This document shows positions 35,201-39,292 of a stretch of DNA of 64,000 nucleotides, piece after piece. The stretch's first letter is position 1; each line of letters begins with the position of its first letter. Position numbers: made by a program. Source of the stretch: Octopus vulgaris (Eukaryota); contig OX597830.1 of the NCBI GenBank assembly GCA_951406725.2, positions 14,818,001 to 14,882,000 of the forward strand. Reading direction: 5' to 3'.

Positions 35201-36652
35201 TATATCATTCGACCCAAAACTTTTGTAATCATTATTGTGAGCAGAGAATTCGTCAATTGTAATTAATCTGTGAAATAAGTAAGGATATTCCTAATTGTTA
35301 TTACAAATCGGATCAGGTAAAATGGCAGTGATAAGCGTCTTCGGTTTATATAGTACATACATACAACAAAAGAATTACATATACAAAAAGCACCTAAATC
35401 CTTTGCTAAATGATATAGAAAATACATAGTCATTCATCAGCCAGACTAAGAAAAACAGGAAGTTCGCAGTCATCAGATAACTGGTCCTTAAAGAATTCCA
35501 ACACGCCCTTCAGTATTGCAAGGAGCACAGTTAACTGCCAAGCCCTACAACTATAGCAAACAGCATTGCCAACTCACCGTATCAGTTTCATATTTGCCGA
35601 TTTCCTTCATATCAAAATTACTCAACTAACACTCCTAATTAATTTCCGGACCAAAATACTATATTCAGAAGCATAACATATCTTAAACAAACTTCGGTGC
35701 AGGTGTGGCTGTGTGGTAAGAAGTTTGCTACCCAACCTCATGGTTCTGGGTTCACTCTTACTGTCTGACACCGTGTCTGACTCTTTGGGCAGACCAAAGA
35801 CTTAATGGTAGATTTAAATGACCGAATTTGAAAGAAGCCAGTCCTATATATACATATATATATTATAGGGGTAAAATATGAAAAATCAACGAAAATGCAC
35901 ATTGTAAATAAAAAAAAAGGCTTTTTATGACAGGTAACGACAAATATATACATTTAGATTGACTGAGGTAGTAATAAAAGTAATTATTATGAAATGATTA
36001 TAAAGTCAGAAAACAAAGCGTACCATGGTTTCCGCAAAACTATTCATCGCTTTGAAAACACCGGCTAATACACGGTGTCAGGTCTAATAGTTCCTGAGAA
36101 AAAAGATTTGTAACATATTTCTACTATATATATATATACGTGTGTGTGTGTTTGCTTTTGTGTCTGTGTTTGACCCCATCACCACCTGACACCCGGTATT
36201 TGTGTGTTTACGTCCCACTAGTATAGCAGTTCGGCAAAACAGACCGATAGAATAAGTACGAAGCTTTAAATGAAAATAAATAGTGAGGTCGATTCATTCG
36301 ACTAACGTTCTTCCAGGCAGTGTACCAGCTTGGCCACAAAAAACGATACTATATTCACAAAGGGATACGCAGTTGCCCCAAAATATCCGTAAACAAAGCC
36401 AACACGAGTCAAGGTAACAAAACATTTGACAGCCACTTTATACACCTTCCATAATTTAGAAAGATATATTAATAGAACATTTTATATCATAATCTGCATT
36501 ATTACACGCCGTTATTTCGATCACAGACGATAAATTTTGGCGCAAACATTTCATAAATACATGTATGTTCGATATCTTCATCTCCTTAATATGTAGGAGA
36601 TGTACAAATTTATGCGCATATGCATAGGTGAATTAATACGCTAATATCTCAC

Positions 36653-36714
<62 letters not shown>

Positions 36715-39292
36715 TAAATTAGAGACAAAACCACTATTAGGCAAATCATACAATGAAAAACTTAAGCCAATACATAAGATTATTTAATTTATATTATTTA
36801 AATATATAACAAAATTATTAAAAAAATATAATTAATATATCACTACAATCGTTTCATGGCTGTTAATTTCTTTAAATTTTCAAGTCACAGTCATTCATCA
36901 GGTGGTTTAAATATTTTTGGGGCAACTGCGTATCCCTTTGTGAAAATAGTATCTTTTCTTTTGGCCAAGCTGAGGCACTGCCTCGAAGAACGTTAGTCGA
37001 ATGAATCGATCTCAGTATTATTTTCATTTAAAGCTTCGTACTTATTCTATCGGTCTGTTTTGCCGAACTGTTATACTAGAGGGACGTAAACACACAAATA
37101 CCGGATGTCAGGCGGTGATAGGGGAAAACAGACACAATTATGGAAGGTGTATAAAGTGTCTGTCAAAGTTAGTTCATTGTTCAAACATAGTGAGATATTA
37201 GCGTATAATATAATATTTTACTATAAAATTGGATTCAATCCTAAATCTGATTTTTCCCTGTAAGTTTGGATTTATTCCCTAATATTTATTATTATTATAT
37301 ATATATATATATACCTCTAATATAGGATAGAATTTTTCGAAAAAAATTCCATCAATGACCAGCATATTAAAAAATACCTTTAAAGGCTTACTTATAAATT
37401 GTATATATACATATACAATTCAAATAAGTTATCATTATCTATTAAAATAATGATAAAGTGGCCAGGAAACATAATCGAAATATACAAAATATATAATAAA
37501 AAGTCAGGGTACAATGTGCTTGAAATAGGAGTTAAAACCTTCCAAATCCACACATCTCTCACTATATATATATATATGTATACCTCTCTCCTTATACGCG
37601 AACGGAGAAGATAGGAAATATATTTCTACGAAACAGGCCTTCCTCCTGCAAAATACAAATAGTAAAAGACAAACAGGGGCATAGACATCCTAGTATCGGT
37701 TGATTTCGATTTCTGTGTCGAACCAACATTTAAAGCTCAGCAACTAGGCTTACTACGTAAACTACTTCAAAAAACATAATTAACTTCCGTGCGCGTTGTT
37801 CGGCTGAAGGCCCCGCGACTGCCAAACAAACATTAGTGAACAAGTATAAATTCAAAATTCAAGTAAGTTATCATTTTCTATAAAAATGATGATAACGTGG
37901 CAATTAAGCATAATACAAATATGCAAAATATATAATAAGTCAGGGTGCAATATGCTTGAAAGAGGAGTTAAAACCCTCAAAAATCACGCATCTCTCACTA
38001 TATGTAAACACGCACGGAGAATACAGCAAATATATATATGTATGAATTTATGTATGTTAAGGATATTGACTGGACAGGTGGTGTGCTACGACCACACCTC
38101 TGAATTGCAGTTGACTTTGTATTCATTCCCGGAAATACAGGTAAATTGCAAACCATGCTGACAGAGACGGACACCCATAGCTCAGTAGCAGGCCTTAAAA
38201 TGAGCCCCATAAAGATTAAAATACATCCGATGACGTAGCGCAAAAACGAAAAGAGGTGGGAAAGAATGAAATTGTTGGGGTAAAGAATATGCTTACTTGG
38301 AGCAGAAAGGGAATATGCGCAGAGATATGAATGCTGAAATCTGGAAGAAAATAAGGGCAAAATGACATGCGTTTTCCTCAATAAAGGACAAGACAATACG
38401 TACCAGAATCGCTAATAACATTGTCCTAGTTGAGCTCTTATATACAAGTCAGACTTGGTCTACTACGAAGGGGGAACAACATCAATTGGTTACGACGCAT
38501 AGAGCCATGGAAAGATCCATGCCAGGACTATCATTATGAGAACATGTTCAAAATGAGATTATTCAAGAGCGGAGAGGAGCGATCGATGTAATTGCAGACT
38601 ACCGAAAGCACAAGTTTCGCTTGGCCGAACGCGTCACAAGGTTCATATACAGCGAGGGAACGCCTGCAGTTGCTGAGTTTTATCCAAGAGATCGATAAAG
38701 AACAGCCAGACAGCCTTCATTACAATAAGAAGGCGATTGAGTTAAGCGATTTAGGACATGATTGAGAAAAATAACGCAATCAGTGAACCACAACAACATT
38801 TCGTAGCCTGGCCAGTGATTGGCTAAGTCCCCTTTTCCTTCCTCTCTTACACTGGTCCCGTAGCTGACCAGTTGCAAATTCTCCGTCTCTCCGTTCTCCA
38901 TTGCTCAAGACATTTTCTAAGCGTTACCCACTATTCGCGTCTCCTTGGCCCCCAAGGCCGGATTTTGTTCGACAGTTCGTCCTTGTTCACTGTCCTAAAT
39001 CATACTCCGTATCGTTTTATTTGTTTTGTTTTGTTTGCTCTCGTCCCTAATTCTTCACCAAAAAAAAAACCCTTTTTTGCGTGCACTGTCAATTGGGAAG
39101 CACTCAGTCTTATCGTTTCAGGTGCGAAGATGAATATTACTAATTGGTCGATAACTGAGGAAGAATTACGGGCTTTCTGTTTTTCTGCCGTTCGTTTTTA
39201 CATTCAGTATACGCTATGGCGTTTGTTTATTTACCAAACAATTTTTAAATCATTTATTAAGTAATGGAACGCAGCACACACCGAATTAACAA

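What the first reader, a model, noticed from the sequence alone, without database searches (positions are those of the whole stretch)
36160..37206. Piecewise inverted copying of flanking DNA at the 5' end of an HHR element
Seen: right after the family E unit (36710-36908) come reverse complements of three upstream blocks: A 36160-36386 to 36911-37135, B 36425-36456 to 37136-37167, and C 36636-36655 to 37187-37206. A simple inversion would give the order C'B'A', but the order is A'B'C'. The copies are visibly diverged, so this is not a simple assembly duplication. Inference: the nascent strand repeatedly folded back and used its own upstream strand as template. This would be the process that makes inverted PLE pseudo-LTRs, here reaching into host flank and duplicating part of a SINE.
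Basis: partly seen in the sequence, partly recalled or inferred. Interest (0 to 1): 0.7.

Follow-up and report, generated by a model that had tools for sequence, protein, structure and literature searches.

The report
Patchwork inverted copy of upstream DNA
A 300-base patch is stitched together from three reverse-complement copies of DNA lying a few hundred bases upstream, an old scar of a polymerase hopping between templates next to a long TA repeat and a small retroposon; it is a tidy example of a known kind of rearrangement.

Summary
Window 36911-37209 is built from reverse complements of three upstream blocks: A 36158-36386 (91%), B 36421/36425-36456 (31 of 32) and C 36636-36655 (20 of 20). 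They lie in template order (A'B'C'), not in the order of a simple inversion. B and C occur nowhere else in the window, and shuffles give none.

The left side is the source. Block A there is a complete SINE with its (CA)n(TA)n tail. The right copy is cut inside that tail and joined to B'. Both copies have since changed (K2P 0.079), so this is not an assembly artefact.

Best reading: one old, non-functional, piecewise templated insertion, made when a 3' end folded back on the upstream strand and switched template several times.

The link to a PLE or hammerhead element is not established:
- "Family E" homology to the only other copy stops at 36840, not 36908.
- Rfam finds no hammerhead here.
- Only 1 of 8 similar units in the window carries inverted host flank.
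- A hand descriptor does find a hammerhead-like core at 36901-36844, so coupling to retroposon integration stays a live rival (about 0.3).

The parts
36115..36386 (-). Source block A. It is a diverged SINE copy (sense on the minus strand) with a complete (CA)n(TA)n tail at about 36115-36157. About 20 bases of non-SINE 5' flank (about 36366-36386) are also copied. The copied part is 36158-36386.
   Evidence: It aligns with 5 younger SINE copies in the window (6191-6406, 8324-8538, 14829-15047, 43451-43638, 45861-46040) at 72-80%. Tail homology to those copies runs to 36140, which is 18 bases beyond the A/A' match.
36421..36456 (+). Source block B, unique sequence 35-39 bases from block A.
   Evidence: 31 of 32 (core) or 34 of 36 (BLAST) identical to the reverse complement of 37136-37170. 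No other match in the window.
36632..36655 (+). Source block C. It ends where the long (TA)n tract begins. Its last ~21 bases resemble the 3' end of the (TA)n-tailed repeat at 37406-37564 and 37845-38003.
   Evidence: 20 of 20 core, 23 of 24 by BLAST; resemblance at the terminus only; TA tract.
36653..36714 (.). (TA)31.5 microsatellite between the source blocks and the E core. It could be a hairpin-forming fragile tract, a retroposon tail, or an insertion target.
   Evidence: Tandem Repeats Finder. The tract is included in the 93.7% match to 32088-32277.
36710..36840 (-). E core. The one other copy is at 32222-32088, embedded in (TA)n on both sides.
   Evidence: BLAST 92.6% over 135 columns. 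nhmmer finds only these two copies. K2P 0.064, 123 of 131.
36841..36910 (-). Segment X, unique in the window. Its minus strand carries a hammerhead-like core: CUGAUGA at 36901-36895, GAAAC at 36855-36851, and a predicted cleavage between 36844 and 36843. The helices are weak.
   Evidence: Unique. Descriptor. No Rfam hammerhead. Fold no better than shuffles (z +0.8). Weak, scoring-dependent similarity to the SINE core.
36911..37137 (+). Copy A', the reverse complement of 36158-36386. It is a SINE in sense orientation, truncated inside its tail.
37136..37170 (+). Copy B', the reverse complement of 36421-36456. It is joined to A' with 2 bases (AA) that could come from either template.
37171..37186 (+). 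Spacer of 16 bases with no identified template.
   Evidence: only 8-base matches within 4 kb, as expected by chance. Extension of B into it is not significant (p 0.14).
37187..37209 (+). Copy C', the reverse complement of 36632-36655 and the last piece before the downstream flank.

Best explanation
36911-37209 is a non-functional, roughly 300-base 'filler' insertion. It was made once, long ago, by serial template switching during repair or replication of a break at or beside the long (TA)n tract.

Proposed steps:
1. A free 3' end on the + strand folded back on its own upstream strand. That end was either in the TA tract, before the E/X unit arrived, or at 36910.
2. It copied 36386 down to 36158. 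This covers the SINE and about 20 bases of its 5' flank, and stops inside the SINE tail.
3. It let go and re-annealed 298 bases further right, then copied 36456 down to 36421.
4. It let go again, added 16 bases of unknown origin, and copied 36655 down to 36632, the sequence that abuts the TA tract.
5. It was then joined to the other side of the break.

Because each copied piece is inverted but the pieces were laid down one after another, the result reads A'B'C' rather than C'B'A'. The E/X retroposon-like unit next to the patch is, on this reading, an independent insertion into the same TA tract, or older sequence.

Shown: the blocks, their order, the direction of copying (left to right copy), a single compact patch, and post-event divergence of both copies.

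Inferred: the fold-back, the kind of polymerase, the break, and its relation to the TA tract.
For: - Blocks and order.
- Not chance.
- Left is the source. The SINE tail is complete on the left and matches the tails of 3 younger copies to 36140. The right copy stops at 37137 and runs straight into B'.
- The sources are dispersed over 500 bases while the copies are packed into 300.
- Both copies changed afterwards. At sites where they differ, A' departs from the majority of the younger SINE copies at 9, A at 6, and neither matches at 6. K2P is 0.079.
- A (TA)31.5 tract lies between source and patch, and block C ends at its edge.
- The A'/B' junction has 2 bases shared by both templates.
- In the whole window this is the only unit of its kind with inverted host flank (1 of 8), as expected for a sporadic repair accident.
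- Precedent (passages read): yeast breaks repaired with local fold-back inverted insertions of 2 to about 150 bp. These are primed at microhomology by Pol delta and captured by end joining, with further template-switch cycles in MMBIR (PMC11724301). Short-range template switching in great-ape evolution (PMC7954356, search listing and start of abstract only).
Against: - No orthologous or empty site could be examined, so the break, its position and the order of events are inferred.
- The first fold-back would need a loop of about 270 to 520 bases and a copied stretch of 229 bases. That is longer than most events in the yeast study.
- No clear microhomology is visible at the X/A' junction beyond a possible ATAT, or at the B'/C' junction.
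- The patch begins 10 bases upstream of the CUGAUGA box of a hammerhead-like core. That is about where similar units begin, which a coupled retroposition model predicts directly.
- E-pair divergence (0.064) is close to A/A' divergence (0.079), so the two events may be the same age.
Confidence: 0.5

Rival explanations
1. One reading: the patch was made during integration of the E/X unit. E/X is a short (TA)n-tailed, hammerhead-like, probably PLE-dependent retroposon with its sense on the minus strand. The cDNA was primed from the + strand in the TA tract and ran to the RNA 5' end at about 36908. Its 3' end then folded back on the upstream host strand, which is continuous with it, and jumped three times before the 5' junction was sealed.
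For: - A hammerhead-like core at 36901-36844 (minus strand) passes a relaxed descriptor. That descriptor finds 2 sites in the window against 0.03 per shuffle.
- E/X has the same layout as family G: a hammerhead-like 5' part, a roughly 130-base body and a (TA)n tail.
- The patch starts 10 bases upstream of the CUGAUGA box. Units of families H and G start 3-11 bases upstream of theirs.
- 4 of 8 such units in the window have head-to-head inverted structures at their 5' ends.
- All three templates lie on the primer side, as the model predicts.
- E-pair and A/A' divergences are similar.
- Literature (passages read): PLE insertions often carry an inverted 5'-truncated copy and prefer (TA)n (PMC8557442). 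Self-priming, template jumps and host-DNA capture have been proposed for PLEs (PMC3846280). A PLE protein cleaves and extends both strands in vitro (PMC11167929). L1 integration can cause fold-back inversions (PMC7058536).
Against: - E homology to its only other copy ends at 36840. X is unique, so the 5' end at 36908 is unverified.
- No Rfam hammerhead at E<=10, even in a 171-base search, whereas family G gets a weak one in a comparable search.
- No G10.1-C11.1 pair, no palindromic loop 3, and a fold no better than shuffles (PMC4209133).
- The descriptor was tuned after seeing the motif.
- 0 of the 7 other units carry inverted host flank.
- The inverted arm at 9894-9975 holds element sequence that the adjacent direct copy lacks. 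It was therefore not copied from the neighbouring DNA strand.
- There is no reverse transcriptase or PLE ORF in the window.
- A later insertion of E/X at the edge of the same TA tract would give the same adjacency.
Confidence: 0.3
2. Re-insertion of a small circle. The 299-base segment 36158-36456 was circularised as DNA, or copied from a circular intermediate, with 36158 joined to 36456. It was then opened between A and B and inserted in inverted orientation. C' was added as a small templated patch at the junction.
For: A' followed by B' is a circular permutation of the reverse complement of 36158-36456. A and B together cover 265 of those 299 bases. The A'/B' junction shares 2 bases.
Against: C' and the 16-base spacer still need extra template switches, so nothing is saved. 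Extensions that would close the A-B gap are not significant. There are no splice signals or ribozyme cores at the junction (read from the sequence). No second copy of the junction exists in the window.
Confidence: 0.07
3. Independent events. A and A' are two separate insertions of the same SINE subfamily in opposite orientation. B/B' and C/C' are unrelated short matches, or parts of other repeats.
For: A is a SINE. A and A' share subfamily features against the 5 younger copies, for example a 9-base insertion. Block C resembles the 3' terminus of another (TA)n-tailed repeat.
Against: - A' lacks the SINE tail that a primary retroposed copy must have, and it is fused to B'.
- A and A' also share about 20 bases upstream of the SINE head.
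- B and C are unique to these two places, with 0 of 100 shuffles matching.
- A and A' are 91% alike but only 72-80% like every other copy in the window.
Confidence: 0.03
4. Assembly or sequencing artefact, such as a chimeric or fold-back read.
For: Inverted duplications next to TA repeats are a known failure mode of assemblies (general knowledge; Craig et al. note assembly problems at PLE structures, PMC8557442 passages).
Against: The copies differ by 17 substitutions and 3 indel positions, spread over both copies. The patch is piecewise, and there are no N runs in the window.
Confidence: 0.02

Closest known systems
Local fold-back and complex templated insertions at DNA breaks (MMBIR/FoSTeS-type serial template switching; yeast fold-back insertions, PMC11724301; short-range template switching in apes, PMC7954356)
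   Same: Inverted copies of nearby sequence are inserted at one junction. Several pieces come from one neighbourhood, junction homology is 0-2 bases, and the copy is compact while the sources are dispersed.
   Different: The first piece (229 bases) and the implied loop (270-520 bases) are larger than most yeast events (2 to about 150 bp). The break itself is not observable here, and the polymerase is unknown. MMBIR, FoSTeS and polymerase-theta comparisons rest partly on recall.
Inverted 5' copies and pseudo-LTRs of Penelope-like elements (PMC8557442, PMC3846280)
   Same: An inverted structure lies at the presumed 5' end of a (TA)n-associated short retroposon-like unit. Self-priming and template jumps have been proposed for PLEs.
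   Different: Described PLE structures are inverted copies of the element itself. Here the inverted material is host DNA (a SINE and unique sequence) in three pieces. No PLE ORF, pLTR or Rfam hammerhead is present at this site.
L1 twin priming and L1-mediated fold-back inversions (PMC7058536; twin priming recalled, not read here)
   Same: Retroposon integration is linked to inverted DNA at the 5' side, and a cDNA end engages another template.
   Different: Twin priming inverts element sequence. L1 fold-back inversions bridge sister chromatids and duplicate kilobases to megabases. Here 300 bases of upstream flank are copied in cis.

Membership tests
Complex templated (fold-back) insertion by serial template switching | The inserted sequence is a copy of nearby genomic sequence, in inverted orientation. 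| tested here: met
   A', B' and C' are reverse complements of 36158-36386, 36421-36456 and 36632-36655.
Complex templated (fold-back) insertion by serial template switching | Several pieces are concatenated in an order that no single inversion or duplication gives. | tested here: met
   The order is A'B'C' on the + strand. The sources are spread over 500 bases and the copies are packed in 300.
Complex templated (fold-back) insertion by serial template switching | Polarity: one side is the intact template and the other a derived copy. | tested here: met
   The SINE tail is complete on the left. It is cut and fused to B' on the right.
Complex templated (fold-back) insertion by serial template switching | Microhomology at the junctions. 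| tested here: inconclusive
   There are 2 shared bases at A'/B', a possible ATAT at X/A', and none seen at B'/C'. About 8% divergence blurs the junctions.
Complex templated (fold-back) insertion by serial template switching | An empty (pre-event) site exists in relatives. | not testable with these tools
Hammerhead ribozyme (type I, PLE min-HHR) in segment X | Conserved core: CUGANGA, GAAA, the A15.1-U16.1 pair, and H17. | tested here: met
   On the minus strand: CUGAUGA at 36901-36895, GAAAC at 36855-36851, and GUA before the predicted cut at 36844|36843.
Hammerhead ribozyme (type I, PLE min-HHR) in segment X | A match to the Rfam hammerhead covariance models. | tested here: not met
   No hit at gathering score in the window. 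None at E<=10 in 10-kb, 701-base and 171-base searches.
Hammerhead ribozyme (type I, PLE min-HHR) in segment X | G10.1-C11.1 pair, stable helix II, and palindromic 15.2-16.2/loop 3 (PMC4209133). | tested here: not met
   There is A-U at 10.1-11.1. Helix II has 6 of 7 pairs with an A.C mismatch and a 25-base loop. Loop 3 is GAUU. Fold z-score is +0.8.
Hammerhead ribozyme (type I, PLE min-HHR) in segment X | The motif is conserved with covariation across family members. | tested here: not met
   X has no other copy in the window, and the only other E copy lacks it.
Penelope-like element or PLE-dependent non-autonomous unit (E/X) | RT and GIY-YIG ORF, or pLTR sequence shared with an autonomous PLE. 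| tested here: not met
   All 20 of the 54 listed ORFs of 120 aa or more that were translated are translations of simple repeats. None was scanned against Pfam. No autonomous partner is available for comparison.
Penelope-like element or PLE-dependent non-autonomous unit (E/X) | Insertion in (TA)n, 5' truncation, and inverted or tandem partial copies. | tested here: inconclusive
   Both E copies sit in (TA)n, and the 32-kb copy is shorter at the presumed 5' end. No inverted or tandem E sequence is present.
SINE (block A) | A short dispersed repeat with a simple-repeat 3' tail. | tested here: met
   There are 5 full younger copies of about 215 bases plus one fragment, with (CA)n(TA)n tails.
SINE (block A) | An internal Pol III promoter or tRNA-like head. 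| tested here: inconclusive
   ARAGORN finds no tRNA-like gene in the window. There is no Rfam tRNA or 5S/7SL hit at gathering score. A and B boxes were not modelled.

The most novel reading that the evidence does not exclude
The patch is a frozen by-product of integration of a small (TA)n-targeting, hammerhead-type (PLE-dependent) retroposon. At the RNA 5' end the nascent cDNA, still attached to the upstream host strand, folded back and used that host strand as template in three successive jumps. That would be direct sequence evidence that the fold-back or self-priming step proposed for inverted PLE pseudo-LTRs acts on DNA in cis and can duplicate host sequence.
Probability: 0.3. Interest if true: 0.6.

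Novelty: new member of a known kind. Interest (0 to 1): 0.35.

Why it matters
As a repair scar, it is a clean three-piece record of short-range template switching in an invertebrate-type, TA-rich genome. It shows how such events create long hairpin-forming inverted repeats and duplicate SINEs without retroposition.

If it could be tied to integration of the neighbouring unit, it would bear on an open question: how Penelope-like elements make their inverted and tandem ends. It would also suggest a route by which they copy host DNA. The window alone cannot decide this.

Tried and rejected
1. Hammerhead by Rfam. No hammerhead hit came from gathering score on the whole window or E<=10 on 30-40 kb, 36600-37300, 36790-36960, 44-46 kb and 55-56 kb. 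The only hit is a weak Hammerhead_1 match at 56990-57052 (13.3 bits, gathering score 34, E 2.7).
2. X as a SINE head fragment: not significant against 4 younger copies (p 0.06-0.60).
3. X as a SINE core fragment: 10 of 2000 shuffles reach the score under permissive gap costs. It is not significant under two stricter scorings (p 0.23-0.28). Left unexplained.
4. Extending blocks A, B and C so that A and B become contiguous, which the circle model needs: not significant.
5. Templates for the 16-base spacer and for 37207-37296: nothing above chance.
6. g2+C as a member of the repeat at 37406-37564 and 37845-38003: only the last ~21 bases are alike.
7. Simple models were worked through on paper from the coordinates and rejected because they give C'B'A'. 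These were one inversion, inversion between C and C', a read-through transcript copied once, and a 5'-truncated inverted copy of a read-through RNA.
8. PLE ORFs: none. The long ORFs translated (20 of 54) are all simple-repeat translations. No Pfam scan was run.
9. No search of eukaryotic genomes was possible. Genome contigs holds bacteria and archaea only and was not used. Orthologs, empty sites and a genome-wide census therefore stayed unchecked.
10. The search for a published report of inverted host flank at PLE 5' ends was limited. One search found 81 papers holding at least 3 of 4 terms; 12 were listed, and none of those contains 'Penelope-like'. Searches returned the PLE papers cited. Supplements were not opened.
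Full report
**Observation**

The region was read directly and compared with itself in three ways: the repeat finder, BLAST and iterative Smith-Waterman alignment.

- A: 36158-36386 is the reverse complement of 36911-37137, 91.3% over 230 columns.
- B: 36425-36456 matches 37136-37167 at 31 of 32. BLAST extends it to 36421-36456 against 37136-37170.
- C: 36636-36655 matches 37187-37206 at 20 of 20. BLAST extends it to 36632-36655 against 37187-37209, 23 of 24.

With up to three mismatches, B and C each occur only at these two places in the 64-kb window. 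None of 100 dinucleotide shuffles gave two matches for either. Only 15 local inverted pairs (under 2.5 kb apart, dust-masked, E<=1e-3) exist in the whole window, and two of them are A and B.

On the + strand the copies read A', B', C'. Every block is inverted but the series is not, so a single inversion cannot explain the order. Attempts to lengthen the blocks beyond their cores were not significant (p 0.14, 0.47, 0.79). Sixteen bases between B' and C' (37171-37186) have no identifiable template.

**What the blocks are**

Block A is a SINE. Five younger copies of about 215 bases lie in the window (6191-6406, 8324-8538, 14829-15047, 43451-43638, 45861-46040), plus a fragment at 55038-55137. They are about 90% alike among themselves and 72-80% like A. 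All end in (CA)n(TA)n.

A and A' are 91% alike and share features the younger copies lack, so they belong to an older subfamily. The match between A and A' also covers about 20 bases upstream of the SINE head (alignment A1). B is unique sequence. C is the 20-24 bases that abut a (TA)31.5 tract at 36653-36714. Its last ~21 bases resemble the 3' terminus of another (TA)n-tailed repeat just downstream.

**Which side is the copy**

On the left the SINE keeps its whole tail. Homology to the tails of three younger copies runs to 36140, which is 18 bases beyond the A/A' match, and on into (TA)n. On the right the SINE stops at 37137 inside the tail and runs straight into B', with two bases (AA) that either template could have supplied.

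A retroposed SINE cannot lack its 3' end, so the right side is derived. The sources are spread over 500 bases in their native contexts, while the copies are packed into 300 bases. That is the signature of a templated insertion.

Both copies have changed since. At the sites where they differ, A' departs from the majority of the younger copies at 9, A at 6, and neither matches at 6. The Kimura distance is 0.079, with 9 transitions, 8 transversions and 3 indel positions. The window has no N. This excludes an assembly artefact.

**The neighbour: 'family E' and the hammerhead**

BLAST and nhmmer find only one other E copy in the window, at 32222-32088. Its homology ends at 36840. With the TA tract included, the match is 32088-32277 against 36840-36655 at 93.7%. 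The 70 bases 36841-36910 (here called X) are unique in the window.

Rfam does not support a hammerhead at this site:
- No family is found at gathering score anywhere in the window.
- No hammerhead is found at E<=10 in searches of 10 kb, 701 bases and 171 bases around X.
- The minus strand of X folds no better than shuffles (z +0.8).

On the other hand, the minus strand of X does carry an intact hammerhead core. CUGAUGA is at 36901-36895 and GAAAC at 36855-36851. There is a one-pair helix III, GUA before a predicted cut at 36844|36843, and a helix II of 6 of 7 pairs.

A relaxed descriptor, written after seeing this motif, finds two sites in the window: this one and 57046-56996. Dinucleotide shuffles give 0.03 per window, and 2.7% of 300 shuffles have one or more.

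The second site lies in a four-copy family (G: 9998-10160, 31635-31805, 44251-44421, 57026-56869). Each copy has a hammerhead-like 5' part, a body of about 130 bases and a (TA)n tail. It gets a weak Rfam Hammerhead_1 match (13.3 bits, gathering score 34, E 2.7).

X lacks two hallmarks listed for PLE min-HHRs: the G10.1-C11.1 pair and a palindromic loop 3 (PMC4209133, passages read). My reading is that E plus X is probably a decayed unit of the same class as G. That is not shown.

Four of the eight such units in the window have head-to-head inverted structures at their 5' ends.
- Two family H copies (55532-55678 and 44494-44662) share the same 75-base inverted arm. That hairpin was therefore inherited, not made at each insertion.
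- One G copy has a 15-base inverted arm.
- The G copy at 10.0 kb has an inverted arm (9894-9975) that includes the CUGAAGA half of the motif. The adjacent direct copy lacks that half. This arm therefore cannot have been copied from the neighbouring DNA strand. It needs a second template, most simply RNA.

These structures fit what is described for Penelope-like elements:
- An inverted 5'-truncated copy at the 5' end, and a preference for (TA)n (PMC8557442, passages).
- Proposed self-priming, template jumps and capture of host DNA (PMC3846280, passages).
- A PLE protein that cleaves and extends both strands in vitro (PMC11167929, passages).

None of them is an inverted copy of host flank. I tested each unit for an inverted match between the 400 bases beyond its 5' end and the 800 bases beyond its 3' tail. 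Only E/X shows one (score 163 against a shuffle maximum of 12). The other seven score 9-11, within the shuffle range. So the count is 1 of 8.

The window has no reverse transcriptase. The 20 of the 54 listed ORFs of 120 aa or more that I translated are all translations of simple repeats, and I did not scan any against Pfam.

**Mechanism**

Simple models all predict C'B'A' and were rejected. These were one inversion, recombination between C and C', a read-through transcript copied once, and a 5'-truncated inverted copy.

What fits is a 3' end on the + strand that copied the upstream + strand in three runs. The runs were 36386 to 36158, then 36456 to 36421, then 36655 to 36632. Each restart lay further right, closer to the TA tract. 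The end was then joined to the downstream side.

The opposite direction of synthesis would need the complementary strand of the left side as template. That strand would be resected at a break, so a sister chromatid would be required. I consider this less likely.

Local fold-back insertions of this logic are documented at yeast breaks. They are 2 to about 150 bp long, primed at microhomology by Pol delta and captured by end joining, with further cycles in MMBIR (PMC11724301, passages). Short-range template switching is described in ape evolution (PMC7954356, listing only). L1 integration can produce fold-back inversions (PMC7058536, passages). Comparisons with FoSTeS, polymerase theta and L1 twin priming are from recall.

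**Which trigger**

Three scenarios give the same geometry.
- S2: the patch formed at a break at the right edge of the TA tract. A 3' end ending in TA repeats has ready microhomology with the ATAT at 36383-36386. E/X later inserted into the same TA tract, as such units do all over this window.
- S3: a break at 36910 in older sequence.

The patch begins 10 bases upstream of the CUGAUGA box, about where G and H units begin (3-11 bases). This favours S1 over S3. S2 predicts the same adjacency. The divergences of the E pair (0.064) and of A/A' (0.079) are similar, which is compatible with S1 and S2.

I put S2 plus S3 (break repair unrelated to E/X integration) at about 0.5, S1 at about 0.3, and a re-inserted 299-base circle at about 0.07. 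In the circle model, A' then B' is a circular permutation of the reverse complement of 36158-36456, of which 265 bases are covered. Independent SINE insertions and assembly artefact together come to about 0.05.

**Function, novelty, verdict**

Nothing suggests a function. The arms are decaying copies, and the structure would only add a 229-base hairpin-forming inverted repeat.

The kind of event is known. The specimen is unusually legible: three pieces, clear polarity, and a SINE duplicated without retroposition.

The PLE link would be interesting if true. It needs orthologous loci and a genome-wide census, which the available collections (bacteria and archaea only; the others were closed) could not provide.

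I found no printed report of inverted host flank at PLE 5' ends in the limited searches made. Searches returned the PLE papers cited. In one search, 12 of 81 papers were listed and none of them mentions Penelope-like elements. Supplements were not opened.

The organism is unknown to me. A cephalopod-like impression from the SINE and the TA richness is recall only, and searches do not test it.

Noticed in passing
window 9998-10160 (+), 31635-31805 (+), 44251-44421 (+), 57026-56869 (-): Family G consists of four units of about 180 bases. Each has a hammerhead-like 5' part, a body of about 130 bases and a (TA)n tail. The 56.9-kb copy has a CUGAAGA box and a weak Rfam Hammerhead_1 match (56990-57052, 13.3 bits against a gathering score of 34, E 2.7). 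The 10.0-kb copy carries an inverted 5' arm (9894-9975) holding motif sequence that its direct copy lacks.
   Followed up: partly
window 55532-55678 and 44494-44662: Two homologous (TA)n-flanked elements (family H) start with the same head-to-head inverted arm of about 75 bases. The arm begins 3-4 bases upstream of a CUGAUGA (or decayed CCGACGA) ... GAAAC motif. The 5' hairpin is shared by both copies, so it was inherited, not made at each insertion. There is no Rfam hammerhead hit.
   Followed up: partly
window 45260-45591; window 31816-32060: There are two MITE-like elements inside (TA)n tracts. One is a 330-base near-perfect palindrome (88% self-complementary). The other is a 245-base element with terminal inverted repeats of about 13-15 bases, and it splits the TA tract next to the 32-kb E copy.
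   Followed up: no
window 16847-18692: This is a cluster of inverted and direct repeats. Examples are 16847-17225 against 18692-18278 inverted (80-84%), 16897-17008 against 17904-17794 inverted (91%), and 17227-17430 against 18354-18573 direct. It may be another complex local rearrangement or nested copies of one family.
   Followed up: no
window 37406-37564 and 37845-38003: A direct repeat of about 160 bases (83-87%), 437 bases apart, lies just downstream of the patch. It ends in a motif followed by (TA)n that resembles the last ~21 bases of block C.
   Followed up: partly
window 36841-36910: The + strand of segment X aligns, with many indels, to the SINE core inside A' (37004-37061). 10 of 2000 shuffles reach the score under permissive gap costs, but the match is not significant under stricter scoring. 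The origin of X is unresolved.
   Followed up: partly
whole window: 11.4% of the window is perfect mono- to tetranucleotide repeat of 12 bases or more. The 20 of the 54 ORFs of 120 aa or more that were translated are all translations of such repeats. No tRNA genes and no Rfam family at gathering score were found. Long TA tracts give many spurious sub-threshold microRNA-model hits.
   Followed up: yes
window 6191-6406, 8324-8538, 14829-15047, 43451-43638, 45861-46040, 55038-55137: This is a young SINE family: about 215 bases, about 90% mutual identity, and (CA)n(TA)n tails. All copies are in + orientation in this window. Two copies (8.3 kb and 14.8 kb) share extra flank (8309-8579 against 14814-15085, 86%).
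   Followed up: partly
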